NCBI GenBank assembly: GCA_002773285.1
Contig: PFBM01000021.1
Location: forward strand, 14,312 to 78,311
DNA from: Candidatus Kaiserbacteria bacterium CG10_big_fil_rev_8_21_14_0_10_59_10
GTDB taxonomy: Bacteria > Patescibacteriota > Minisyncoccia > Phycocordibacterales > UBA2100
DNA: 64,000 bases
Reading direction: 5' to 3'
In this document: positions 2,721 through 57,550 of the stretch, in pieces
Position numbering within the stretch: the stretch's first letter is position 1
How the letters are laid out: the number at the start of each line of letters is the position of its first letter
Made by a program: the position numbers and the translations under genes
Notes under the pieces: model-generated
Told to the model about the DNA's origin: nothing
Databases searched by the model: none
Seen by the model: the letters and a program-made list of their open reading frames with translations, nothing else

Positions 2721-2981
2721 ATGAAAAAGATGTTTTCAATGCTCACTCCGCCTGCGATAGCGCTGATGCCGCTGCGGTGGTTTGCATGCGCAAGCTGCTA
2801 CTATCGCAGCAAGCAATGCGTGCCGACGCGCTGCCCGAATTGCGGCAGGGCGGAGCTGTCGGCCGAGGATGAGTACGCGGTCCAGGAGGGAGGACAGTTG
2901 GCACGGCGCCGCGGCGCCGTGCCTATTTCTTATGCGGATTGTGATTCGCGCAGGACTTGTCGCTGCAGCGCTCGGGGATAG
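2721..2981 (+). CDS. Small CxxC...CPNC zinc-ribbon-like protein (hypothetical). Its 3' end overlaps the topA 3' end on the opposite strand.
   Basis: Strong SD (GGGAGG) about 7 nt upstream of the ATG at 2721. Cys pairs CASC...CPNCG. Overlap with topA and low-complexity C-terminus lower the confidence. Confidence 0.3.
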   Translation: MKKMFSMLTPPAIALMPLRWFACASCYYRSKQCVPTRCPNCGRAELSAEDEYAVQEGGQLARRRGAVPISYADCDSRRTCRCSARG

Positions 2982-9973: not shown

Positions 9974-11034
9974 AGAGAGGCACGTCGTCAGTCGCGCCGG
10001 CTCACGCGACGCTCTATCGCACCTACCGGCCTTCGGCATTTGAAGACGTGCGCGGCCAGGAGCACGTGGTGAGCGTTCTGCAAGCGGCGATTGCGAGCAA
10101 AAAACTCGCGCACGCGTACCTGTTTGTCGGCGGGAGAGGAACGGGAAAAACAACCGTGGCGCGCATTTTTGCACGCGAGCTCGGCGTAAGCGACAAGGAC
10201 CTCTACGAGATGGATGCGGCCTCGCACACGAGCGTTGAGGACGTTCGCGAGCTGCGCGAGGGTGTGAACGCGATGCCGTTCGAGTCGCCCTACAAGTTCT
10301 ACATAATCGATGAGGCTCACATGCTCTCGAAACAGGCCTGGAATGCATTCCTGAAAACGCTCGAGGAACCGCCTCCCCATGTGCTGTTCGTGCTCGCAAC
10401 GACCGAGCGAGACAAAGTGCCGGATACGATACAATCGCGCTGCGATGTCTATAGTTTCAGACCGCCGACGCGGGAGATGCTTGCGGAAGCCGTAACGACG
10501 GTTGCAAAAAAAGAGGGATACGCGCTGGAGCGCTCCGCTGCGGAGCTCGTCGCGCTGTTGGCGGAAGGGTCGTATCGCGATGCGCTTTCGATACTGCAAA
10601 AGGTCCTTACCGTGTCGAAGGACAAAAAAATTGACGTTACAGAAGTCGAAGCGGTCACCGGCGCGCCGCGCGGGGAGCTGGTACGCCAATTGCTGCGTGC
10701 AATGGCGGAAGCGAACGCGTCCGATGCGCTTCGCGCAGTGCAAGAGGCGGTTGCCGCGAATCTGGACGCGCGAACCCTGACAAAGCTTCTCATTCACCGA
10801 TTGCGCGTTGTAATTTTGCTGCGATTCGCGCCGGAGCTTGCAAGCGCATTCTCTAAAGAGCTTGCGGAGCCGGATATGGAACTTGCAACAGCGCTTTCCA
10901 AGAGTGCCGAGGTCACGTCTGACGCGCTTCGCGTGCTTCTGGATGCGTACGAGAGAATGGCCTACGCTGCCGTTCCGCACGTCCCGCTTGAGCTTGCGAT
11001 AGTGGACATATGCGGCGCGGCGGCGCAAGAGTAG
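9970..11034 (+). CDS. dnaX: DNA polymerase III subunit gamma/tau, short form (about 354 aa). ATG overlaps the dus stop (ATGA).
   Basis: YRPSAFEDVRGQEHVVSVLQAAIASKKLAHAYLFVGGRGTGKTTVARIFARELG (AAA+ clamp-loader Walker A). Cys-rich zinc module absent; domain III-like helical C-terminus. Confidence 0.85.
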   Translation: MKRGTSSVAPAHATLYRTYRPSAFEDVRGQEHVVSVLQAAIASKKLAHAYLFVGGRGTGKTTVARIFARELGVSDKDLYEMDAASHTSVEDVRELREGVNAMPFESPYKFYIIDEAHMLSKQAWNAFLKTLEEPPPHVLFVLATTERDKVPDTIQSRCDVYSFRPPTREMLAEAVTTVAKKEGYALERSAAELVALLAEGSYRDALSILQKVLTVSKDKKIDVTEVEAVTGAPRGELVRQLLRAMAEANASDALRAVQEAVAANLDARTLTKLLIHRLRVVILLRFAPELASAFSKELAEPDMELATALSKSAEVTSDALRVLLDAYERMAYAAVPHVPLELAIVDICGAAAQE

Positions 11035-11083
11035 GGCGCCCTGTCGGGCGCCCTTGCGCAATGCCGCGCTCACGCCGGCTCGC

Positions 11084-16686: not shown

Positions 16687-17427
16687 ATGAGGATACGTAC
16701 GCACAGCAGAGAAGTGGCAGCGGCAGTTCTTGCCGCTGCCATTCTCGTAGGAGGCACGGCGGCGGTCCGCACGCTGCTGGTTCTGCCTGCCTCGGCGCTT
16801 CTCGTGCCGTACCCAACGGAAGCTCATGAGAAGAACGACGCGTTCGGGCTCATACGGTTTGTTACAGAGACAGCAACGCCGTTTAGCGGTGCGCAAGGCG
16901 CGTCGCGAGCGGAGAGACCGTTCCGGGCGCGGCCGGCTGCCTCAGAGAGGAATGGCGCATCGGAGGCGATGGGAACGGCGCAGCCCATGCGGCTCCAAAT
17001 ACCGCATATACGAGTCGACGCGCCGGTCGTGAGGGTCGGCATCAACGGGGTTGGCAATATGGCAACGCCATCGTCGTTCAGCGAGGTCGGCTGGTATCGG
17101 CATGGCCCGCGACCCGGCGAGCCGGGAAGCGCCGTCCTTGCCGGGCATGTAGACAATGCACTCGGGTTTCCCGGCGTCTTTAAGAGATTGGGTGAGTTGC
17201 GGGAAGGAGATGTGCTGTATATCACTGTGGCTGATGGCACTGCTCTGCGATTTGTTGTCGCCTCTGTGGAAACGCATCCATATAATGACGCACCTACGAA
17301 CGAGATTTTTTCGACGGGCGGCGCGCCGCGTGTCACGCTTATCACCTGTGCCGGCTCCTGGCTGCGCAGTGCCGGCACATACGATACGCGGCTCGTCGTC
17401 ACGGCATACTTGGCGGATGATAAGTAA
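16687..17427 (+). CDS. Sortase-family transpeptidase (paralog of 13649..14419)
   Basis: LAGHVDNA (His), TLITCAGSW (Cys), RLVVTA (Arg). N-terminal TM anchor. Confidence 0.8.
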   Translation: MRIRTHSREVAAAVLAAAILVGGTAAVRTLLVLPASALLVPYPTEAHEKNDAFGLIRFVTETATPFSGAQGASRAERPFRARPAASERNGASEAMGTAQPMRLQIPHIRVDAPVVRVGINGVGNMATPSSFSEVGWYRHGPRPGEPGSAVLAGHVDNALGFPGVFKRLGELREGDVLYITVADGTALRFVVASVETHPYNDAPTNEIFSTGGAPRVTLITCAGSWLRSAGTYDTRLVVTAYLADDK

Positions 17428-24825: not shown

Positions 24826-24898
24826 TGTCAGATGGCCGCGGCAGCGCCAATACCAATCCTTGAAGTGTTGAGGCCCGCGGCGCCATCGCGCCGCGGGC

Positions 24899-25045
24899 CT
24901 ATGCCGCCTTCCTGTGCCGGCGTGTAATCCAACGCCACCCATAAAAGGCACGTGCCCAATGGGTATACCGGGCAAGACACACCTTGCTGCAAAAGTAGAG
25001 CGCGTCCCCGCACGGCAGCACGATGGTGTGCTTTGAGCCGTCCAT
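24899..25045 (-). CDS. YHS/TRASH-domain mini-protein (about 48 aa; metal-binding motif)
   Basis: LPCGDALYFCSKVCLARY fits the C-G-x...YFCS-x2-C-x3-F YHS/TRASH signature. Internal Met of ORF 24899..25099. Confidence 0.4.
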   Translation of the reverse strand: MDGSKHTIVLPCGDALYFCSKVCLARYTHWARAFYGWRWITRRHRKAA

Positions 25046-27595: not shown

Positions 27596-27630
27596 GGGCG
27601 CGCCGCTCCCGCGGCGCGCCCAATTCTTTT
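27596..27630 (+). terminator. Rho-independent terminator downstream of lysS (third of three hairpins in this spacer)
   Basis: GGGCGCGCCGC-TCCC-GCGGCGCGCCC followed by AATTCTTTT. An upstream hairpin GCCGAGC-TTTT-GCTCGGC and CCCCGGGTCTTTTTTT also lie in the spacer. Confidence 0.45.
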
Positions 27631-31711: not shown

Positions 31712-32656
31712 ATGCTCGACGTTCGTGAACAGGTTCCGCTTGCTCCGCTGACAACGTTCGGCATCGGCGGCCCCGCACGGTATTTTGTCGACGTCACGTC
31801 TGAGAAAGAGATAATGCAGGCGCTGCACTGGGCAACGCGCAAAAATGTCCGCGCGGTGCTCTTGGCGGGCGGGAGTAATGTCTTGGTACCGGATGAAGGG
31901 CTTGAGGCGCTCGTGATACGCATCGCACAGAGTGCGTACGATATCAGCGGGGCAACGCTTATCGCGGACGCGGGATGCAACTTGTGCGAGCTCATTGGAA
32001 AGACCGCGGCGGCGGGACTCGGCGGGTGGGAGAGACTCGCCGGCATACCCGGTACTATCGGCGGCGCTGTACGCGGGAATGCCGGTGCCTTCGGCACCGA
32101 AATGAGAGATATCGTGGTGTGGGTACGGGCCGTAGATATGGAGAGCGGAGAGGTGCGCGAATACACGAATGAGGAGTGCCACTTTTCGTATCGTATGAGC
32201 TATTTCAAACGAAATCCTGCATTGTTCGTTACCAAAGTGTGCGTGGCGCTGGAAGAAGTGCCTCCTGTTGAGGCACAACGGATAATAGAAGAGACCGTCG
32301 CAGAGAGAGAGCGTCGGCACATACAAGATGTGCGCGCAGCCGGTTCGTACTTCATGAATCCTGTAGCGCCGAAAGCGATACAGTCTCGTTTTGAAAAAGA
32401 GAAGGGCGTTGCTGCTCGCGGAGGGCGCGTGCCCGCCGGCTGGCTCATAGAAAAGGCGGGCCTAAAAGGAGCGCGCGTTGGCGGAGCGCAGGCAAGCGAG
32501 CAGCATCCAAACTATCTTGTCAACACGGGTACTGCGACAGCCGCGGACGTACGCGCTTTGGCGGAGCGTATACGCGAGGCGGTGCAGGACGCCTTTGGCG
32601 TCGAGCTGCAAGAGGAAGCCGTCGTGCTCGGGAGGGATGGGCGCACCGTCCGCTAG
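31712..32656 (+). CDS. murB: UDP-N-acetylenolpyruvoylglucosamine reductase
   Basis: LAPLTTFGIGGPARYFVDV...LLAGGSNVLV FAD-binding start. ATG 2 nt after the uvrB stop. Confidence 0.85.
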   Translation: MLDVREQVPLAPLTTFGIGGPARYFVDVTSEKEIMQALHWATRKNVRAVLLAGGSNVLVPDEGLEALVIRIAQSAYDISGATLIADAGCNLCELIGKTAAAGLGGWERLAGIPGTIGGAVRGNAGAFGTEMRDIVVWVRAVDMESGEVREYTNEECHFSYRMSYFKRNPALFVTKVCVALEEVPPVEAQRIIEETVAERERRHIQDVRAAGSYFMNPVAPKAIQSRFEKEKGVAARGGRVPAGWLIEKAGLKGARVGGAQASEQHPNYLVNTGTATAADVRALAERIREAVQDAFGVELQEEAVVLGRDGRTVR

Positions 32657-32886
32657 CCGGGTTTTTTGGTGTCGAATACCCACACTAATACGAGTATCCA
32701 GCCCACGACCGTCCAACCGATCATAAAGTTAGTGAAAAATATCGCGCGGGGATTAACATGCCGCAGAATATAGGCGAGGAACGTCGGAAAGAAGTAGACG
32801 TACAGAAAGCCGAGTATAACTACGAATTCGGTCATGCGATGATGGCCGAGTATACCCGACTTCATCCACTGGACAAAATTACGCAC
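32653..32886 (-). CDS. Superinfection-immunity-like small membrane protein (Imm_superinfect family). Likely start at an internal Met near 32835. Its 3' end overlaps the murB stop.
   Basis: VVILGFLYVYFFPTFLAYILRHVNPRAIFFTNFMIGWTVVGWILVLVWVF matches the YFLPTIIA..R.......F.LN...GWT.IGW..ALIWA pattern. Confidence 0.55.
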   Translation of the reverse strand: MRNFVQWMKSGILGHHRMTEFVVILGFLYVYFFPTFLAYILRHVNPRAIFFTNFMIGWTVVGWILVLVWVFDTKKPG

Positions 32887-32906
32887 TCGCGGGGTCGGAG
32901 CCGTCT

Positions 32907-33131
32907 TTACACGCTCTTCTTTGCCGCCTCACCCGTCGAGTGTCCCCGTCCCTCGCCGCGCGGCGTGTCTAGCGCCCAGATGAGTGACAGGAACCAGCCG
33001 ACCACGCTCCACGCGAGCAGCAGGTTGACGAAGAATACGCCCCCGGGATTCGCGTGGCGAAGATAGACGGCAAGGATGGTCGGAAAAAAGTATACATAGA
33101 CGACCGCGATCGCAATAAGGAGTTCTCTCAT
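32907..33131 (-). CDS. Superinfection-immunity-like small membrane protein, tandem paralog
   Basis: IAIAVVYVYFFPTILAVYLRHANPGGVFFVNLLLAWSVVGWFLSLIWAL is the same motif as the neighbouring gene. Confidence 0.55.
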   Translation of the reverse strand: MRELLIAIAVVYVYFFPTILAVYLRHANPGGVFFVNLLLAWSVVGWFLSLIWALDTPRGEGRGHSTGEAAKKSV

Positions 33132-33279: not shown

Positions 33280-35874
33280 ATGCAGGACAAAATAACCATA
33301 AAAGGCGCGCGTACGCACAACCTCAAAAACATTACGGTTGAGATGCCGCGCAACAAGATGATCGTATTCACCGGTCTGTCGGGCTCGGGTAAGTCGTCGC
33401 TCGCATTCGATACGATATTCGCCGAGGGACAGCGCAAGTATGTGGAGTCGCTGTCGGCCTATGCGCGTCAATTCTTGCGCCAGATGCAGAAACCGGACGT
33501 CGATGAGATATCTGGTCTTTCACCGGCAATATCGATCGATCAAAAAAGCCGCTCGAATAATCCTCGCTCGACAGTGGCAACTATCACGGAAGTATATGAT
33601 TACCTGCGCGTACTCTACGCGAGGATCGGGCACCCGCACTGTCCCGTTTGCAGCAGGGAAGTGAAGAAGTTGACCAATGAGGAGATACTGGACGCGGTAC
33701 TGAAAAGCGTAACAGCATCGTCGCGCACAGCTCGCGCAGGGCGTGCCCTCACTGCAGGCGTGTCAACCGCGACCATACGCATCGCGGCGCCTGTCGTCGT
33801 CGGCAGAAAGGGCGAATACTATCAACTGCTGTACGATCTTTTGAACAAAGGGTATGAGCGCGCGGTGATCGATGGCGCAGAAAAAAGCCTGCGCCAGCGC
33901 ATAGTGCTCGAGAAAAACAAGAAGCACGACATCGATATCGTCGTGGACGATATATTCGTAAGCGAGTTCGCCGACGATAAAAAAGCGGCTCTTGAGCGGG
34001 CGTCGGAAGCTATCGAACGCGCGCTGCACGAGGCGGACGGTTTGGTACGCATCACGGAGCCGAACGGGGAAGCCCGCATTATATCCGCCAAGTTCATGTG
34101 TCCGTACGACGGGTTCTCATTTCCAGAGGTGGAACCGCGTCTATTTTCCTTTAACTCCCCGTACGGTGCGTGCCCTGAGTGCAACGGGCTAGGGACAAAG
34201 CATCTTTTTGGCAACGAGGAGTGCGAAGCGTGCAAAGGTGCGCGCCTGCGGCCGGAGGCGCTGCACGTCATGCTCGAGAGCGGCGGAAAGGGCGCCGCGC
34301 GAAGAAATATCGTCGAGATAGCCGGGATGTCTATCGCTGAGGCAGCAGATTTCTTCTCAGGGCTGAAGCTGTCAAAAAGCGAACAGGAGATATCGCGCAC
34401 CGTTATCAAAGAGATTTCGAGCCGGCTGCAGTTTATGATAAATGTCGGTATCGAGTACCTGACGCTGGATCGGCGCGCCAATACGCTCTCCGGAGGAGAA
34501 GCGCAGCGCATACGGCTGGCATCGCAGCTTGGCAGCGGACTTGTTGGTGCGCTCTATGTGCTGGACGAACCCACAATAGGCCTCCATCAGCGCGATAATG
34601 ACCGACTTATCCGCACGCTGCAACACTTGCGGGAGCTCGGAAATACCGTGCTTGTGGTCGAACATGATGAGGACACCATTTATGCGGCGGACTATATTAT
34701 CGACCTTGGACCGGGAGCCGGCGTGCACGGCGGGGAGATAGTGGCCGCAGGGTACGTGGAGGATTTGATAGGGGCGAAGTCAAACCCTTCCGGCTCCCGC
34801 ACGCTCGCATATCTGCGCGGGGAGGATGAGATTGAGATACCGTCAAAGCGCCGGGACGAGAATCGAGGCACGTTAAAGGTGCGCGGCGCAACAAAGTTCA
34901 ATGTAAAGAAGGTCAATGCGGACATTCCTCTTGGGAAGTTCGTCGTTATTTCGGGCGTTTCCGGAAGCGGCAAATCGACCTTCTTGTACGAGATACTGCA
35001 CAGGAACCTGCGTGCGCGCTTTGATCCGCGCTACCGAACCGCTACGAAGTATAATGTTGATGATTTTAGCGGCACAGAGTACGTGGGGCGCGCGATACTG
35101 ATAGACCAGAGCCCTATCGGAAGAACGCCGCGCTCCAATCCGGCTACCTATACTGGTGCATTCACGCACATCAGGGATCTTTTTGCCATGACGGAAGAGG
35201 CGCGGACGCGTGGCTGGGGGCCGGGGCGCTTTTCATTCAACGTCAAAGGTGGGCGCTGTGAAGCATGCCAGGGGAACGGCTTGATCGCAGTTGAAATGCA
35301 CTTTCTTCCTACTGTGTATGTCACGTGCGATATCTGCCGAGGCAAGCGGTACATGAAAGAAACACTCGAGGTGAAATATAAAAAGAAGAGCATACACGAT
35401 GTGCTCTCCATGACAGTCGAGGAAGCGTTACTCTTTTTCGAGGACATACCTGCCGTATCCGATCGCCTGCGTACGCTCATGGACGTGGGGCTTGGGTATC
35501 TGGAGCTCGGGCAGAGTGCGACGACGCTCTCAGGCGGCGAGGCGCAGCGCGTCAAGATAGCGTCAGAGCTGTACCGGCCACATCTTACGAAAACGGTGTA
35601 TCTCTTGGACGAGCCGACGGTCGGCCTGCATTTCGACGACGTTAAGAAGCTTATCGAAATACTGCAGCGTTTGGTTGACCGCGGCAACACCGTCGTTGTC
35701 ATCGAGCACAACTTGGATGTTCTTAAGTCCGCGGATTACATTCTCGACATGGGGCCTGAAGGCGGCGCGGGAGGCGGAAAGATCGTCGCTCGGGGCACTC
35801 CTGAACAAGTCGCCGCAAGCGAGGGTTCGCACACTGCGCCGTACTTGAGACGTGCCTTAAAGCGCAAGCGCTAG
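33280..35874 (+). CDS. uvrA: Excinuclease ABC subunit A (864 aa)
   Basis: [12 protein letters not shown]...[37 protein letters not shown]; two ABC ATPase modules and zinc-finger Cys clusters. Confidence 0.9.
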
Positions 35875-35883
35875 CGGCAGCAT

Positions 35884-37212
35884 ATGGAACGAAAAGCATT
35901 GCGCACGCTTTCTCTGCCCGATGCCCCCGGCGTCTACTTTTTTCGCGGTCCAAGGCGCTCGATACTCTATATCGGGAAAGCGGCTTCTCTATCCGACAGG
36001 GTACGGAGCTATTTCTCGGGCGATCTCGCGGCGTCTCGCTCACCCGCCATCGCGGGCATGGTCGCGCGCGCAAAAGACATCACATGGGAAGAGACGGATT
36101 CGGTGCTCGAGGCACTCATTCTGGAGGCGAACTACATTAAAAAGTATCAGCCCCCGTACAACGTTGAGCAGAAGGACAACAAGAGCTGGAATTACCTCTG
36201 CGTAACGCGCGAGAAGTTCCCGCAGGTGTTGGTGGTGCGCGGAAGAGAGCTGTTCGGGACGCAAGGAACGCGCAGGGATATGAAGGCGATATTCGGTCCA
36301 TACCCGCACGGCGGCTCACTGCGCGAAGCACTGAGAATAGTGCGCAAGATCTTTCCGTTCAGAGATGCATCGTGCACGCCATGCGACGAACAGATGTTGG
36401 CAATGCATACACGGCGCCCCAGCAAGCGCAAAACTCTTCCCACAAAGGTTAAACCTTTGGCAAAGGTTAAACCTTTGGGAGGGCGGGCGGATGAATGTAG
36501 ACCCTGCTTTAATAGACACATCGGGCTGTGCCCCGGCGTGTGCACGGGGGAAGTGACTGCGGCAGAATATGCCGGCACCATAAAGAATATTCGCGAGCTC
36601 TTTGCTGGCAAGAAGCGCTCGCTTGTGCGGCGCCTGCAACGGGAAATGCGTGCGGCGGCAAAGAGCGAGGACTACGAGCATGCGGCAACCTTGCGCACAC
36701 AAGTAGAGGCGCTGGAGCACATTCGCGACGTGTCGCTGATCAAAAACGACGCAGGCATTTCAACAGGAGGATCTTTCCGCGTGGAAGCGTACGATGTCGC
36801 TCACACGAGCGGCGCGGAGACCGTAGGTGTTATGACTGTCGTCTCCGGCGGCGAGGCCATGAAAAGCGCCTACAGAATGTTTAAGGTTCGCGGCGTCAAG
36901 AACGACGATGCGGCCGCACTGCGGGAAATATTATCAAGGCGGCTCGTCCACACGGAGTGGCAGCTTCCGCGCGTCGTTGTCGTAGACGGCGGCAAGGCGC
37001 AGCTACGCTCTGCCGAGCGGCTCTTTCGCGAGGTCGGCGTATCAATTCCCGTTGTAGCGGTCGTAAAGGATGAGCGCCACAGGCAATCGCGCATTATTGG
37101 TGATGAGGGTGCGATACGCGCCTCGGAGCGTGATATTCTGCTGGCAAACCGGGAGGCGCATCGCTTCGCGCTTTCGTACCATCGAAAAAGGCGCGCGCAC
37201 CAAGGTAGATGA
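35884..37212 (+). CDS. uvrC: Excinuclease ABC subunit C, short form (442 aa; GIY-YIG + UVR + RNase H-like nuclease domain; no C-terminal (HhH)2)
   Basis: GVYFFRGPRRSILYIGKAASLSDRVRSYF (GIY-YIG). UVR domain TLRTQVEALEHIRD. VEAYDVAHTSG catalytic segment. Ends about 150 aa short of typical UvrC. Confidence 0.85.
   Translation: MERKALRTLSLPDAPGVYFFRGPRRSILYIGKAASLSDRVRSYFSGDLAASRSPAIAGMVARAKDITWEETDSVLEALILEANYIKKYQPPYNVEQKDNKSWNYLCVTREKFPQVLVVRGRELFGTQGTRRDMKAIFGPYPHGGSLREALRIVRKIFPFRDASCTPCDEQMLAMHTRRPSKRKTLPTKVKPLAKVKPLGGRADECRPCFNRHIGLCPGVCTGEVTAAEYAGTIKNIRELFAGKKRSLVRRLQREMRAAAKSEDYEHAATLRTQVEALEHIRDVSLIKNDAGISTGGSFRVEAYDVAHTSGAETVGVMTVVSGGEAMKSAYRMFKVRGVKNDDAAALREILSRRLVHTEWQLPRVVVVDGGKAQLRSAERLFREVGVSIPVVAVVKDERHRQSRIIGDEGAIRASERDILLANREAHRFALSYHRKRRAHQGR
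36443..36478. repeat. Tandem direct repeat (2 x 18 nt) of an AT-rich perfect palindrome, in frame inside uvrC
   Basis: CAAAGGTTAAACCTTTGG twice in tandem; each unit contains the palindrome AAAGGTT-A-AACCTTT. Encodes KVKPLAKVKPL. Local GC is far below the genome average. Confidence 0.7.
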
Positions 37213-37264
37213 TTTTGCAGGCACGTATTGTATCCATCGGCCGTGGGGTTGCTATACTGTATCT

Positions 37265-37720
37265 ATGCCTGAAGGTCCGGAGAAGGGCAATATCATCAAA
37301 TTTCCTCGGAAGCGCAAGGAGAACGCCACACCTGCGTCGGAGGGTGACGCGTTGGGTACCGTGGGCGAGGATGCGCCTCGCCTCTCTAGAGACGAGGCGC
37401 GTGACATGGCAAGGAGCATAGCAAAACAACTCAGCAGTGATAAGACGGCACTTTTGGATGCGGAAAAGGAATGGCGTGAGAGGAATTGGGGACAGATTGA
37501 CGCCACGGAAGAAACTCAGGCACAGTGGTTGGAGAAATGGAGAAAGGAGTCACGGGCAGCTTCCGAACCGATATTCCTGGAGTTGTTCGAACGATATACG
37601 AAGGACGCCTCTTACTATCCACCACTGAAAATTCTGGCATACGCGTCGGAGTACCTCCGTCGCTTTGGTGAACGGTCTGATCTGGCGCTTTCAGAAGATG
37701 AGGACGACTGGGGGTTGTAG
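37265..37720 (+). CDS. Hypothetical protein (about 151 aa, charged, Trp-containing)
   Basis: Internal Met (MPEGPEKGNIIKFPRKRKE) of ORF-track ORF 37070..37720; coding-like composition. Confidence 0.45.
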   Translation: MPEGPEKGNIIKFPRKRKENATPASEGDALGTVGEDAPRLSRDEARDMARSIAKQLSSDKTALLDAEKEWRERNWGQIDATEETQAQWLEKWRKESRAASEPIFLELFERYTKDASYYPPLKILAYASEYLRRFGERSDLALSEDEDDWGL

Positions 37721-43562: not shown

Positions 43563-44177
43563 ATGAGGCGCACTCTGCCCACCTCTTTTTTTCGAAAAAA
43601 AGCGACGGACATAGCACCTGCACTATTGGGTAAATGCCTCGTTCGCTCAATGCGCCGCGCTACTGTCTCAGCGATGATAACTGAAGTCGAGGCGTATGAC
43701 GGACTCGACGACCTGGCGAGCCATGCGTCGCGCGGACGCACGCCACGGAGCGCAGTCATGTTCGGGCCGCCGGGCCACTGGTACGTCTATCTCGTCTACG
43801 GCATACACGAAATGCTCAATATTGTATGCGGTCCGGAAGGGTATCCAGCCGCTGTCCTTATACGCGGCGTCCACATTTCTCCACGTACATCTCTACCGCC
43901 TCGCCCCCAAAATTACCAAGGACCGTCCTTGGTAAGGGGAGGGGGTAGGGTGCGCGCGGGCGAAATCGCGGGCGAAATACTGGGGCCGGGAAGGGTAACA
44001 AAGGAACTTGCCGTCACGAGAGCGCTGAATGGGCAGCCGGCGACCGCAGCGAGCGGGCTCTGGATTGAAGACAGAGGAGTGCGGGTGCGCCGCAGCGAAA
44101 TTATTCGTACATCAAGGATAGGCGTGGCATACGCCGGGGAGTGGGCGCATAAGCCGTGGCGGTTCACTCTGCAGTAA
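43563..44177 (+). CDS. mpg: DNA-3-methyladenine glycosylase (MPG/AAG family) with an in-frame palindrome-encoded insert
   Basis: ALLGKCLVR...ITEVEAYDGLDDLASHASRGRTPRSAVMFGPPGHWYVYLVYGIHEMLNIVCGPEGYPAAVLIRGV matches MPG throughout. Extra segment ISPRTSLPPRPQNYQGPSLVRGGG before the C-terminal region. Confidence 0.75.
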   Translation: MRRTLPTSFFRKKATDIAPALLGKCLVRSMRRATVSAMITEVEAYDGLDDLASHASRGRTPRSAVMFGPPGHWYVYLVYGIHEMLNIVCGPEGYPAAVLIRGVHISPRTSLPPRPQNYQGPSLVRGGGRVRAGEIAGEILGPGRVTKELAVTRALNGQPATAASGLWIEDRGVRVRRSEIIRTSRIGVAYAGEWAHKPWRFTLQ

Positions 44178-57514: not shown

Positions 57515-57519
57515 AGATA

Positions 57520-57550
57520 GGGCGGCACCTATCAGTGCCGCCCTTTGCTA
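57520..57550 (+). terminator. Rho-independent terminator candidate between speH-like and ung
   Basis: GGGCGGCAC-CTATCA-GTGCCGCCC hairpin followed by TTTGCTA. A TATACT box follows. Confidence 0.4.

What the first reader, a model, noticed from the sequence alone, without database searches (positions are those of the whole stretch)
36425..36490. AT-rich tandem perfect palindrome inserted in frame within uvrC
The 18-nt unit CAAAGGTTAAACCTTTGG occurs twice in tandem (36443..36478). Each unit contains the perfect palindrome AAAGGTT-A-AACCTTT, giving a 36-nt block far below the local GC content. It keeps the reading frame and adds PLAKVKPLAKVKPL-like residues between the GIY-YIG and UVR domains of UvrC. 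Such structures are typical of miniature inverted-repeat or REP-like elements, or of protein-binding sites, not of coding sequence. A second in-frame palindromic insert lies in mpg (next finding), which makes two DNA-repair genes with in-frame palindromic insertions.
Basis: seen in the sequence. Interest (0 to 1): 0.5.

Follow-up and report, generated by a model that had tools for sequence, protein, structure and literature searches.

The report
REP-like hairpin doublet inside uvrC
The odd AT-rich tandem palindrome inside the DNA-repair gene uvrC is a copy of a small hairpin repeat (REP/REPIN-like, linked to RAYT-type transposases) that is scattered through the genomes of ultra-small "CPR" bacteria and often sits in frame inside essential genes.

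Summary
CAAAGGTTAAACCTTTGG occurs twice in perfect tandem at 36443-36478, in frame in a short CPR-type UvrC. It lies in a hypervariable, probably disordered loop between two conserved Cys motifs.

It is not a local oddity. Its 13-nt core, AAGGTTNAACCTT, occurs as hairpin-forming doublets in at least 120 metagenome contigs and in two named Patescibacteria MAGs. In those sites the same DNA is read in three frames and on both strands inside unrelated housekeeping genes (PolA, LigA, UvrC, UvrD, PilB, many aaRS).

Fourteen of the 120 loci encode Y1/HUH transposases. Their nearest characterised relatives are REP-associated tyrosine transposases (RAYTs). Four of these genes are flanked on both sides by doublets, and four carry a doublet in frame.

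So this is an intragenic REP doublet (REPIN-like). Intragenic REPs in repair genes are already described in other phyla (Di Nocera 2013). What is new is the family: CPR hosts, no GTAG/CGTC tag, and almost no exclusion from coding sequence.

The window itself holds no RAYT and no further copy. Mobilisation by RAYT is therefore inferred, not shown.

The parts
36443..36460 (+). REP-like unit 1: CAAAGGTT-A-AACCTTTG + G. It contains the family core AAGGTTAAACCTT at 36445-36457.
36461..36478 (+). REP-like unit 2, identical to unit 1. Core AAGGTTAAACCTT at 36463-36475.
36438..36480 (.). Whole predicted hairpin. Unit 1 pairs with unit 2 with a single A.A mismatch at the two centres, and the stem is extended by the flanking TCCC/GGGA.
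   Evidence: As ssDNA the fold is -13.8 kcal/mol, z = -4.2. As RNA it is -23.2 kcal/mol, z = -4.5. None of 200 shuffles folds as well.
35884..37212 (+). Host gene uvrC. This is the short CPR form, 442 aa, with GIY-YIG, UVR and RNase H-like domains and no C-terminal HhH domain.
36385..36495 (+). Hypervariable linker of UvrC (aa 168-204), between the conserved motifs FPFRD-x-C-x-PC and C-x-PCFNRQIGLCPGVC. The doublet encodes aa 187-199 of this linker.
   Evidence: Alignment A1 shows a linker of 0 to about 60 aa in homologues. In the AF2 model residues 168-212 have pLDDT < 50 and almost no secondary structure; only one short predicted helix (168-174) falls at their start.
43913..43935 (+). Second in-frame hairpin of the same style, TTACCAAGG-ACCGT-CCTTGGTAA. 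It lies inside mpg and encodes NYQGPSLV. It is a single unit, not a doublet.
43563..44177 (+). mpg (methylpurine-DNA glycosylase), host of the second hairpin.
   Evidence: Pfam Pur_DNA_glyco, E = 1e-53. The match spans 196 residues of the protein against 177 profile positions.

Best explanation
The 36-nt block is an intragenic copy of a short palindromic repeat family of CPR/Patescibacteria. It is a REP doublet, that is REPIN-like. Each unit carries the 13-nt core AAGGTTNAACCTT, which can form the stem-loop AAGG/TTNAA/CCTT. Two units plus a short spacer form one long hairpin in single-stranded DNA or RNA.

In related genomes these doublets flank, and even lie inside, genes for Y1 (HUH) tyrosine transposases of the RAYT/TnpA_REP type. 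The most likely origin is therefore RAYT-mediated single-strand cut-and-paste or copy of the hairpin into uvrC. This step is inferred by analogy with IS200/IS605 and E. coli TnpA_REP.

The copy survived for three reasons. It adds a whole number of codons, it has no stop in the frame used, and it landed in a loop of UvrC that tolerates any length.

Both centre bases are A instead of the usual complementary pair. In this frame (AAG GTT NAA) and at this 18-nt spacing, a T at either centre would make a TAA stop. Two routes lead to A/A and cannot be told apart here: a T/A doublet fixed only after a T-to-A change, or an A-centred single unit that inserted and was then duplicated by slippage.

Shown here: the repeat, its family, its association with RAYT-like genes elsewhere, and the variable loop.
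Inferred: mobilisation by RAYT, neutrality for UvrC, and the order of events.
For: 1. Family.
- The pattern AAGGTTNAACCTT-N(2-12)-AAGGTTNAACCTT has 24 specified bases, so by my own arithmetic well under 10 chance hits are expected.
- 132 sites were analysed. 126 have complementary centre bases, which makes them inverted doublets.
- The window copy matches the doublet in the PolA gene of a Patescibacteria MAG almost base for base, apart from a 2-nt shorter loop and the centre base: TTCCCACAAAGGTTAAACCTTTGG--CAAAGGTTAAACCTTTGGGAGG against GGCCCCCAAAGGTTTAACCTTTGGGGCAAAGGTTAAACCTTTGGGGGAG.

2. DNA-level identity, not protein-level. The same core is read as KV[QEK]P, R[LF]NL or G[SL]T, on either strand, in unrelated proteins.

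3. RAYT link.
- Y1_Tnp genes occur in 14 of the 120 loci, and in none of 273 kb of other loci or the window.
- All 12 full-length ones pass the Pfam PF01797 threshold.
- The only NCBIfam hit is NF047646, REP-associated tyrosine transposase.
- The only PDB hit of their profile is 4ER8, E. coli TnpA_REP.
- Doublets flank the gene on both sides at 0-20 nt in L128, L090, L061 and L120. They lie in frame inside it in L112, L073, L117 and L120.
- A 719-kb Paceibacterota contig has three diverged paralogues, each flanked on both sides by its own hairpin type.

4. Multi-copy. One 93-kb contig carries a near-identical 48-nt element in ValRS, MurB and its RAYT.

5. Tolerated site.
- The linker is hypervariable and has pLDDT < 50.
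- Five other CPR UvrC genes carry palindromes of 28-46 nt, or paired hairpins, in the same loop.

6. Real sequence. A second assembly is identical.
Against: - The window holds no Y1_Tnp gene and no other copy of the core in 64 kb. Nothing shows that the element is or was mobile in this genome.
- The two centres are identical. Formally this is a direct tandem, not an inverted doublet. Only 6 of 132 family sites are non-complementary.
- No empty-site relative is available. The closest other UvrC is 63-68% identical, so the insertion boundaries and the absence of a target duplication cannot be verified.
- The RAYT-like proteins score far below NCBI's equivalog cut-off (31-49 bits against 80). The PDB link is weak (E = 0.008).
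- No GTAG or CGTC tag, the hallmark of described REPs, is present.
- In GatB (L109) the doublet-encoded peptide aligns to a solved homologue without any gap. Not every copy is therefore a simple insertion.
- The taxonomy of most anonymous metagenome contigs was not determined.
Confidence: 0.75

Rival explanations
1. Purely local origin. An 18-nt stretch of native uvrC coding sequence that happened to be palindromic was duplicated by replication slippage. There is no relation to any dispersed repeat.
For: - The two units are exact direct repeats, 2.0 copies, period 18.
- Hairpin-prone sequence favours slippage (established knowledge).
- Both centres are A, as expected for a direct duplication.
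- There is no other copy in the window.
Against: - The same 13-19-nt core occurs as doublets in at least 120 unrelated loci.
- The PolA doublet of L008 is nearly identical.
- At 39% GC the block is foreign to a 57-59% GC genome.
- Slippage may still be the last step, turning a singlet into a direct doublet. It cannot explain where the unit came from.
Confidence: 0.05
2. A host-selected functional site rather than a selfish element. The hairpin or palindrome would be a binding site for a conserved CPR protein, or an RNA structure that regulates uvrC (pausing, processing or attenuation). The family would then be conserved because the host uses it.
For: - The 13-nt core is conserved across contigs of 32-61% GC, while flanks and loops vary.
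- Orthologous UvrC copies L048 and L130 differ by a compensatory double change that keeps the palindrome: CAGAATTCTG against CGGAATTCCG.
- Some intergenic copies look like terminators, with a hairpin followed by a T-run.
Against: - The sites are spread over dozens of unrelated genes, in any frame and on either strand.
- UvrC orthologues lack the site.
- Arm-to-arm correction by template switching would give compensatory changes without selection (established mechanism, not tested here).
- The tight association with transposase genes fits a mobile element better.
- There is no Rfam match.
Confidence: 0.1
3. A miniature element moved by something other than RAYT. Candidates are a DDE-transposase MITE with terminal inverted repeats, or copies spread by recombination after DNA uptake.
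For: - The inverted-repeat architecture resembles a MITE.
- No RAYT is present in this window.
- CPR bacteria are thought to rely on DNA uptake (general knowledge).
Against: - No target-site duplication is visible at the window copy. The flanks are CCCA and GGGA, partly complementary rather than direct.
- The flanks of other copies are inverted, not direct.
- At 35-50 nt the elements are far shorter than the 70-300 bp usual for MITEs (PMC3733652).
- The only transposase class found next to them is Y1/HUH.
Confidence: 0.08
4. Assembly or sequencing artefact, for example a palindromic chimera or adapter.
For: Palindromes and short tandem duplications are classic assembler and library artefacts.
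Against: - A second assembler (Logan) reproduces the sequence at 100% identity over 9 kb.
- The block preserves the reading frame.
- The same core occurs in contigs from dozens of independent metagenome projects and in NCBI MAGs, and is conserved between orthologues such as L034 and L087.
Confidence: 0.02

Closest known systems
REP / REPIN-RAYT systems of Pseudomonas and Enterobacteria (Bertels & Rainey 2011, PMC3116915; Nunvar 2010; Ton-Hoang 2012)
   Same: - Short palindromic units are mostly arranged as inverted doublets that fold into one hairpin.
- There are many copies per genome.
- The cognate Y1/HUH transposase gene is flanked by the repeats.
- Paralogous transposases each have their own repeat type.
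   Different: - The doublets are much shorter, 30-38 nt core to core, against REP spacings of 71-110 bp in P. fluorescens.
- There is no GTAG tag.
- They are hardly excluded from coding sequence: 42% of evaluable sites lie in long ORFs, against 50% for random positions. Classical REPINs are extragenic by definition.
- The hosts are CPR bacteria. No paper in the library links REPIN or RAYT to Patescibacteria.
Intragenic GTAG/CGTC REPs in replication and repair genes (Di Nocera et al. 2013, PMC3733652)
   Same: Single REPs and REP dimers sit in frame inside known genes. That paper notes UvrABCD, RecBCD and DNA polymerase I as notable hosts, and dimers that encode 20-30 aa. This is the same phenomenon as seen here in uvrC, and in PolA, LigA and UvrD of relatives.
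   Different: - The repeat families (GTAG- and CGTC-tagged) and the hosts (Opitutus, Rickettsia, Thauera, Thioalkalivibrio) are different.
- There the intragenic copies are a minority.
- Here the host range is broad (aaRS, Mur ligases, GT4 and others) and is not specific to repair genes.
Rickettsia palindromic elements (RPE; Ogata et al. 2000, as cited in PMC3733652)
   Same: Palindromic selfish DNA is inserted in frame into genes that appear to stay functional. This adds a peptide segment.
   Different: - By my recollection RPEs are about 100-150 bp.
- They are restricted to Rickettsia.
- No dedicated transposase is known for them.
- Their sequence is unrelated.
TnpA_REP subclasses of Quentin et al. 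2018 (PMC6006769): subclass 2.4 and subclass 2.1/TIRYT
   Same: - Subclass 2.4 genes carry REP insertions inside tnpA_REP that do not break the frame. The same is seen in L112, L073, L117 and L120.
- The CPR proteins' motifs (PNH[FY]H, LFQGRFK, YIHLNP) and length (about 210-240 aa) fit the signature listed for subclass 2.1: NH[YF]H / FQ / Y[IV]HLNP, median 238 aa.
   Different: - For subclass 2.1 no REP-like sequences were found near the genes. Here hairpins flank them.
[quoted passage not shown] Here they lie upstream of HuH.
- Subclass assignment was made by motif comparison only. No phylogeny was built.
IS200/IS605 (TnpA Y1 transposase)
   Same: Same Pfam family (Y1_Tnp). Recognition of subterminal hairpins in single-stranded DNA is the mechanistic model.
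   Different: - The elements here have no coding capacity.
- The transposase genes are low-copy and diverged, not identical IS copies.
- The PDB profile search hit TnpA_REP, not IS608 or ISDra2 TnpA.

Membership tests
REP / REPIN (REP doublet forming hairpin) | A short palindromic unit able to form a stem-loop | tested here: met
   Each unit has 8-nt arms, CAAAGGTT-A-AACCTTTG. The family core is AAGGTTNAACCTT.
REP / REPIN (REP doublet forming hairpin) | Two units in inverted orientation, separated by a short spacer, that fold into one hairpin | tested here: inconclusive
   In the family, 126 of 132 doublets have complementary centres. The window copy has centres A/A, so formally it is a direct repeat. 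It is still predicted to fold as one long hairpin with a single mismatch, z = -4.2.
REP / REPIN (REP doublet forming hairpin) | Many copies dispersed in the same genome | tested here: not met
   Only one doublet occurs in the 64-kb window, and the rest of the genome is not available. Relatives do show multiple copies: 4 in 2.2 kb (L120), 3 on one 93-kb contig (L107/L112), and 6 cognate hairpins in 20 kb (L165).
REP / REPIN (REP doublet forming hairpin) | Extragenic location | tested here: not met
   The window copy lies inside uvrC. In the family, 43 of 102 evaluable sites are inside ORFs of at least 200 aa, against 50% for random positions.
REP / REPIN (REP doublet forming hairpin) | A cognate RAYT gene flanked by the repeats | tested here: inconclusive
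   Met in relatives: L128, L090, L061 and L120 are flanked on both sides, and L163-L165 by their own hairpin types. There is no Y1_Tnp gene in the window.
GTAG- or CGTC-tagged REP superfamilies (Di Nocera 2013) | A conserved GTAG or CGTC tetranucleotide at one end of the stem-loop | tested here: not met
   GTAG occurs in 6 and CGTC in 14 of 242 outer flanks of 14 nt. No conserved tetranucleotide was found.
RAYT / TnpA_REP (for the associated proteins, not encoded in the window) | Y1 HUH fold with an HuH motif and a catalytic Tyr motif (Y---NP) | tested here: met
   N87, H88, H90, Y112, Y148 and N152 are invariant, and P153 nearly so, in 31 sequences. Pfam Y1_Tnp scores 28.7-44.3 bits against a cut-off of 23.
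RAYT / TnpA_REP (for the associated proteins, not encoded in the window) | Reaches NCBIfam NF047646 (REP-associated tyrosine transposase) at its equivalog cut-off | tested here: not met
   It is the only family hit, but scores 31.5-49.3 bits against a cut-off of 80. Two of the six proteins had no hit. These are distant relatives, not equivalogs.
RAYT / TnpA_REP (for the associated proteins, not encoded in the window) | Binds and cleaves its cognate REP hairpin | not testable with these tools
   This needs biochemistry.
MITE (DDE-transposon derivative) | Terminal inverted repeats plus a target-site duplication, 70-300 bp | tested here: not met
   There is no direct repeat at the borders (the flanks CCCA and GGGA are partly complementary). 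The element is about 36-44 nt.
Rickettsia palindromic elements | Sequence similarity to RPE families, and a Rickettsia host | not tested
   Only the behaviour (in-frame palindromic insert) is shared. The host here is CPR. No sequence comparison with RPEs was run.

The most novel reading that the evidence does not exclude
CPR/Patescibacteria carry a phylum-wide REP-RAYT system that has not been described. Its hairpin doublets are 'translation-compatible': the core is stop-free in all three frames with C at the centre and in two of three with A, G or T. In contrast to classical REPINs, they colonise coding sequence almost as freely as intergenic DNA. They would thereby create lineage-specific loops in essential proteins of these ultra-compact genomes. 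The uvrC and mpg inserts of this window would be two such loops.
Probability: 0.5. Interest if true: 0.72.

Novelty: new member of a known kind. Interest (0 to 1): 0.6.

Why it matters
- Annotation. Low-GC palindromic blocks inside CPR genes are real repeat-derived inserts. They are neither assembly errors nor domain features, and they can be recognised by a simple motif.
- Evolution. Ultra-small symbiotic bacteria with almost no intergenic space still maintain REP/RAYT-type elements, apparently by parking them in protein loops. This is a ready source of new peptide segments in essential enzymes. It also gives a natural data set for asking which loops tolerate insertions.
- The field. Described REPIN-RAYT systems come from Proteobacteria and a few other phyla, and REPINs are defined as extragenic. 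A CPR family with about 40% intragenic copies, linked to a RAYT class reported to lack REPs, would widen that picture. It could also give markers for CPR strain typing.

Tried and rejected
- More copies in the window. The 18-mer with up to 3 mismatches, AGGTTNAACCT with up to 1 mismatch, and AAGG-N5-CCTT found only the uvrC units and the mpg hairpin.
- Source genome in the GTDB collection. It is not there. The exact 18-mer gave 37 loci and none carries the tandem in uvrC.
- Known RNA family. No Rfam match at E <= 1 in 35800-37300.
- Viral origin. No doublets in IMG/VR.
- Protein-level motif (KVKPL repeats). Rejected, because the same DNA is read in three frames and on both strands elsewhere.
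- CRISPR or TIGR array. Rejected: there are only two units, the location is intragenic, and copies elsewhere are irregularly spaced on both strands.
- Integron attC. GTTRRRY/RYYYAAC is formally present in the core, so this was considered. It was dropped because the elements are too short, intragenic and not next to integrases. This rests on reasoning only, not on a test.
- Operator or restriction-site explanations. No support was found.
- GTAG/CGTC tags. Absent.
- Target-site duplication. None visible.
- PDB. The UvrC middle region has no solved homologue by sequence. A single RAYT-like sequence gave no PDB hit; only the profile did.
- Literature. Searches for CPR/Patescibacteria with palindromic, in-frame, REPIN or RAYT terms found nothing relevant. 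A search for the UvrC 4Fe-4S cluster found no usable source, so that point is left as my own recollection.
- Repair-gene targeting. The host list is broad. No enrichment test was possible.
Full report
**1. The observation**

The sequence is as described. CAAAGGTTAAACCTTTGG lies at 36443-36460 and again, identically, at 36461-36478. It is the best-scoring tandem repeat of the window: period 18, 2.0 copies, 100% match, score 72. It has no further copy in the 64 kb even with 3 mismatches, and shuffles expect 0.01 matches.

Each unit is a palindrome with 8-nt arms around a central A. The junction of the two units is a third palindrome. Unit GC is 39%, against 57% for the local 2 kb.

The block is in frame in ORF 35884-37212 (+). 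This is a 442-aa UvrC with GIY-YIG (residues 15-93), UVR (246-279) and RNase H-like (299-425) domains. The block encodes T187-KVKPLAKVKPL-G199. A Logan assembly of run SRR6240789 is 100% identical over 9007 nt, including the repeat. An assembler artefact is therefore unlikely.

**2. Where it sits in the protein**

The closest homologues are short UvrC proteins of Parcubacteria, Kaiserbacteria and Paceibacterota, at about 60% identity. In an alignment of 40 of them, the repeat falls in a linker between two conserved Cys motifs, FPFRD-x-C-x-PC and C-x-PCFNRQIGLCPGVC. The linker is 0 to about 60 residues long and has no conserved sequence. The nearest other homologue (P0002) has almost no linker.

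An AlphaFold2 model built on this alignment gives pLDDT < 50 and almost no secondary structure (only one short predicted helix, 168-174) for residues 168-212. From memory, and not verified here, these cysteines correspond to the 4Fe-4S ligands reported for E. coli UvrC.

So the peptide is lineage-specific and lies in a loop that tolerates any length.

**3. The same DNA elsewhere**

An exact scan of one genome per species for the 18-mer gave 37 loci. Twelve are from CPR MAGs: Saccharibacteria, Buchananbacteria, Taylorbacteria and 'Patescibacteria group'.

Two Patescibacteria MAGs carry a doublet of the same palindrome in frame inside unrelated genes:
- DNA polymerase I in L008, peptide LAPKGLTFGAKVKPLGEE.
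- A PilB/GspE ATPase in L034, peptide SFPKGLTFVPKVKPLEIW.

The L008 element differs from the window's only by a 2-nt longer loop, the first centre base and a few flank bases. In Saccharibacteria the 18-mer forms the tip of longer intergenic hairpins, some followed by T-runs.

IMG/VR gave none.

Of the 132 sites analysed:
- 126 have complementary centre bases (C/G, G/C, A/T or T/A). They are therefore inverted doublets that fold into one hairpin, often extended by complementary flanks.
- Spacers fall into recurring types, for example GCSGC, xGAATTCx, TGGCTAGCCA, and an 11-nt RRATCKGNARA.
- 43 of the 102 sites with at least 400 nt on both sides lie in stop-free frames of at least 200 aa, with at least 40 codons on each side.
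- Random 36-nt windows in the same loci meet this criterion 50% of the time. The doublets are therefore barely excluded from coding sequence.

Pfam identifies the hosts as housekeeping genes:
- Replication and repair: UvrC (L048, L130 and L154 at a second site between UVR and RNase H; L094 in the same Cys loop as the window), UvrD, LigA twice, RNase H, a DEAD-box helicase, a PD-(D/E)XK nuclease and ComM.
- Translation: PheT; the Ile/Val/Leu/Arg/Ala and class-II tRNA synthetases; GatB, MnmA, MiaA, KsgA, RsmI and Fmt.
- Other: FolD, Mur ligases, MurB, GT4 glycosyltransferases and a class-V aminotransferase.

The core is read as KV[QEK]P, R[LF]NL or G[SL]T depending on frame and strand. What is conserved is therefore DNA, not protein. 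Against E. coli LigA (2OWO), the doublet-encoded EVPATSRFNLAARL of L106 is a clean 14-residue gap.

**4. The link to transposases**

Two host ORFs turned out to be IS200-like Y1 transposases. Searching all ORFs of the fetched loci with them found homologues in 14 of the 120 metagenome loci (743 kb). None was found in the 273 kb of the other fetched loci or in the window.

Evidence that these proteins are RAYT-like:
- All 12 full-length proteins pass the Pfam Y1_Tnp threshold.
- Their only NCBIfam hit is NF047646, REP-associated tyrosine transposase, at E = 1e-7 to 4e-13 but below the equivalog cut-off.
- The only PDB hit of a 31-sequence profile is 4ER8, E. coli TnpA_REP, at E = 0.008.
- Their motifs are YH[IV]YNRG, PNH[FY]H, Y[TS]MYFN...LFQGRFK and YIHLNP.

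Evidence that they are associated with the doublets:
- Doublets flank the gene on both sides at 0-20 nt in L128, L090, L061 and L120.
- Doublets lie within 37 nt of the gene in L080 and L108.
- Doublets sit in frame inside the gene in L112, L073, L117 and L120.

A database search with one of the proteins found 5006 homologues at E <= 1e-10. Every named one is from a CPR lineage (Vogelbacteria, Paceibacterota, Parcubacteria, Azambacteria or Taylorbacteria) and is annotated simply as 'transposase' or 'hypothetical protein'.

One 719-kb Paceibacterota contig has three diverged paralogues. Each is flanked on both sides by its own hairpin:
- TAGAGAGTT[C/G]AACTCTCTA
- TAGAAGG-CGAGG-CCTTCTA
- GGGTAAGG-CGAAA-CCTTACCC. 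This one also occurs as a doublet inside the called ArgRS gene.

One transposase paralogue per repeat type, with the repeats flanking the gene, is the pattern described for REP/REPIN-RAYT systems (PMC3116915).

**5. Other UvrC genes**

I fetched DNA for four homologues with long linkers. All four have strong palindromes in the same loop:
- L159: a 46-nt perfect palindrome made of two sub-hairpins, GTAAAGGCC-G/C-GGCCTTTAC.
- L160: a 28-nt palindrome.
- L161: a 41-nt palindrome made of CCAAGG-N5-CCTTGG hairpins.
- L162: two complementary hairpins 28 nt apart.

With the window and L094, six of the six UvrC loops examined at the DNA level carry palindromic elements, of at least five sequence types. 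The loop is either a repeated landing site or a place where such inserts survive.

The window's mpg hairpin, TTACCAAGG-ACCGT-CCTTGGTAA, belongs to the CCAAGG-N5-CCTTGG style also seen in L161 and several other loci.

**6. Why A/A in the window**

The core has three reading frames. AAG GTT NAA is closed by a stop only when N = T. A AGG TTN AAC is never closed. AA GGT TNA ACC is closed when N = A or G.

In the window the spacing is 18 nt, so both units are read in the first frame. A canonical A/T doublet would then carry a TAA stop in uvrC. The observed A/A pair is the only A/T-type arrangement compatible with this frame.

Either a T-to-A change was fixed, or an A-centred singlet inserted and was then duplicated by slippage. 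I cannot tell these apart. Either way the block is predicted to fold as one long hairpin with a single A.A mismatch: -13.8 kcal/mol as DNA (z = -4.2) and -23.2 kcal/mol as RNA (z = -4.5).

**7. Comparison with what is known**

- REPs inside genes have been described. Di Nocera et al. [quoted passage not shown] They note the parallel with Rickettsia RPEs.
- Quentin et al. 2018 (PMC6006769) report in-frame REP insertions inside tnpA_REP genes of subclass 2.4. They list for subclass 2.1 the motif signature NH[YF]H / FQ / Y[IV]HLNP and a median length of 238 aa. The CPR proteins fit this signature. That paper states that no REP-like sequences were found near subclass 2.1 genes.
- The kind of thing is therefore known.
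- Three points differ here. The host group is new: no paper in the library links REPIN or RAYT with Patescibacteria. The GTAG and CGTC tags are absent. The doublets are very small and show almost no bias against coding sequence.

**8. What is not shown**

- The window contains no RAYT-like gene and no further copy. Mobility in this genome is not demonstrated.
- There is no empty-site relative, so the borders and the target site are unknown.
- The taxonomy of most metagenome contigs was not determined.
- RAYT activity on these hairpins is inferred from homology and gene neighbourhood only.
- In GatB (L109) the doublet-encoded residues align with a solved homologue without any gap. Simple insertion does not explain this.
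- The flanks of many copies are complementary beyond the conserved core, but with different sequences in different copies. This could reflect a palindromic target or hairpin extension by template switching, and remains unexplained.

**Verdict**

It is a new family of a known kind: an intragenic REP doublet in a repair gene. It also points to a wider, apparently undescribed REP-RAYT system in CPR bacteria.

Noticed in passing
window 43913-43935 and 43955-43978 (inside mpg, 43563-44177): mpg carries an in-frame hairpin, TTACCAAGG-ACCGT-CCTTGGTAA (arm 11, loop 1). Twenty nt downstream lies a perfect 12-nt tandem, CGCGGGCGAAAT x2, encoding AGEIAGEI. The Pfam match spans about 20 more residues than the profile, so this region looks like an insert. 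The hairpin has the same CCAAGG-N5-CCTTGG style as elements in other CPR genes (L161, L066, L106).
   Followed up: partly
window 43585-43602: A perfect 18-nt palindrome, CTTTTTTTCGAAAAAAAG, lies at the start of mpg, where it encodes SFFRKK, just after the stop of the upstream ORF. It could double as a bidirectional terminator-like hairpin.
   Followed up: no
window 2900-2923, 11033-11054, 16715-16741, 24871-24900, 27596-27621, 57519-57544: GC-rich hairpins with perfect arms of 9-13 nt lie at or next to the ends of long ORFs, in terminator-like positions. Palindromes with arms of at least 10 nt number 6 in the window, against 0.75 expected from dinucleotide shuffles.
   Followed up: partly
L015 266-3362 (Saccharibacteria MAG CAZNKJ010000002.1); also L005, L024, L036, L009, L016: Five copies of AAGCTCCAAAGGTTAAACCTTTGGAGCTT-type hairpins occur within 3.3 kb, on both strands. 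Other copies in the same and another Saccharibacteria MAG have different lower stems that are still complementary. This looks like a REP-like singlet family in TM7 that shares the window's 18-mer.
   Followed up: partly
L163, L164, L165 (719-kb Paceibacterota contig Ga0376277_0000057): Three diverged RAYT-like paralogues lie in one genome, and each is flanked by its own hairpin type. The third type also occurs as a doublet inside the ArgRS gene (L165 14321 and 14346).
   Followed up: partly
L109 1759-3213 (-), GatB: The doublet-encoded peptide SVARLNLESEKRFNLNFLKL aligns with T. maritima GatB (3AL0) without any gap. The palindrome therefore occupies native-length sequence instead of adding residues.
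   Followed up: no
L048, L130 and L154 (UvrC orthologues, doublet between the UVR and RNase H domains): The spacer differs by a compensatory double change, CAGAATTCTG against CGGAATTCCG, which keeps the palindrome perfect inside coding sequence. This suggests arm-to-arm correction or selection on the hairpin.
   Followed up: no
window 35884-37212 and homologues P0001-P0120: All these CPR UvrC proteins are short (403-472 aa). In the proteins scanned against Pfam here, no C-terminal helix-hairpin-helix domain was detected. uvrC directly follows uvrA (33280-35874).
   Followed up: no
L001 2789-3267 (= window about 32650-33130, minus strand): Two small tandem genes with Imm_superinfect (PF14373) hits lie just upstream of uvrA.
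   Followed up: no
about 25 metagenome loci, e.g. L063, L067, L096, L103, L109, L116, L122, L138, L145: A large sub-family of doublets shares a conserved, non-palindromic 11-nt spacer, RRATCKGNARA. These copies lie in many unrelated host genes.
   Followed up: no
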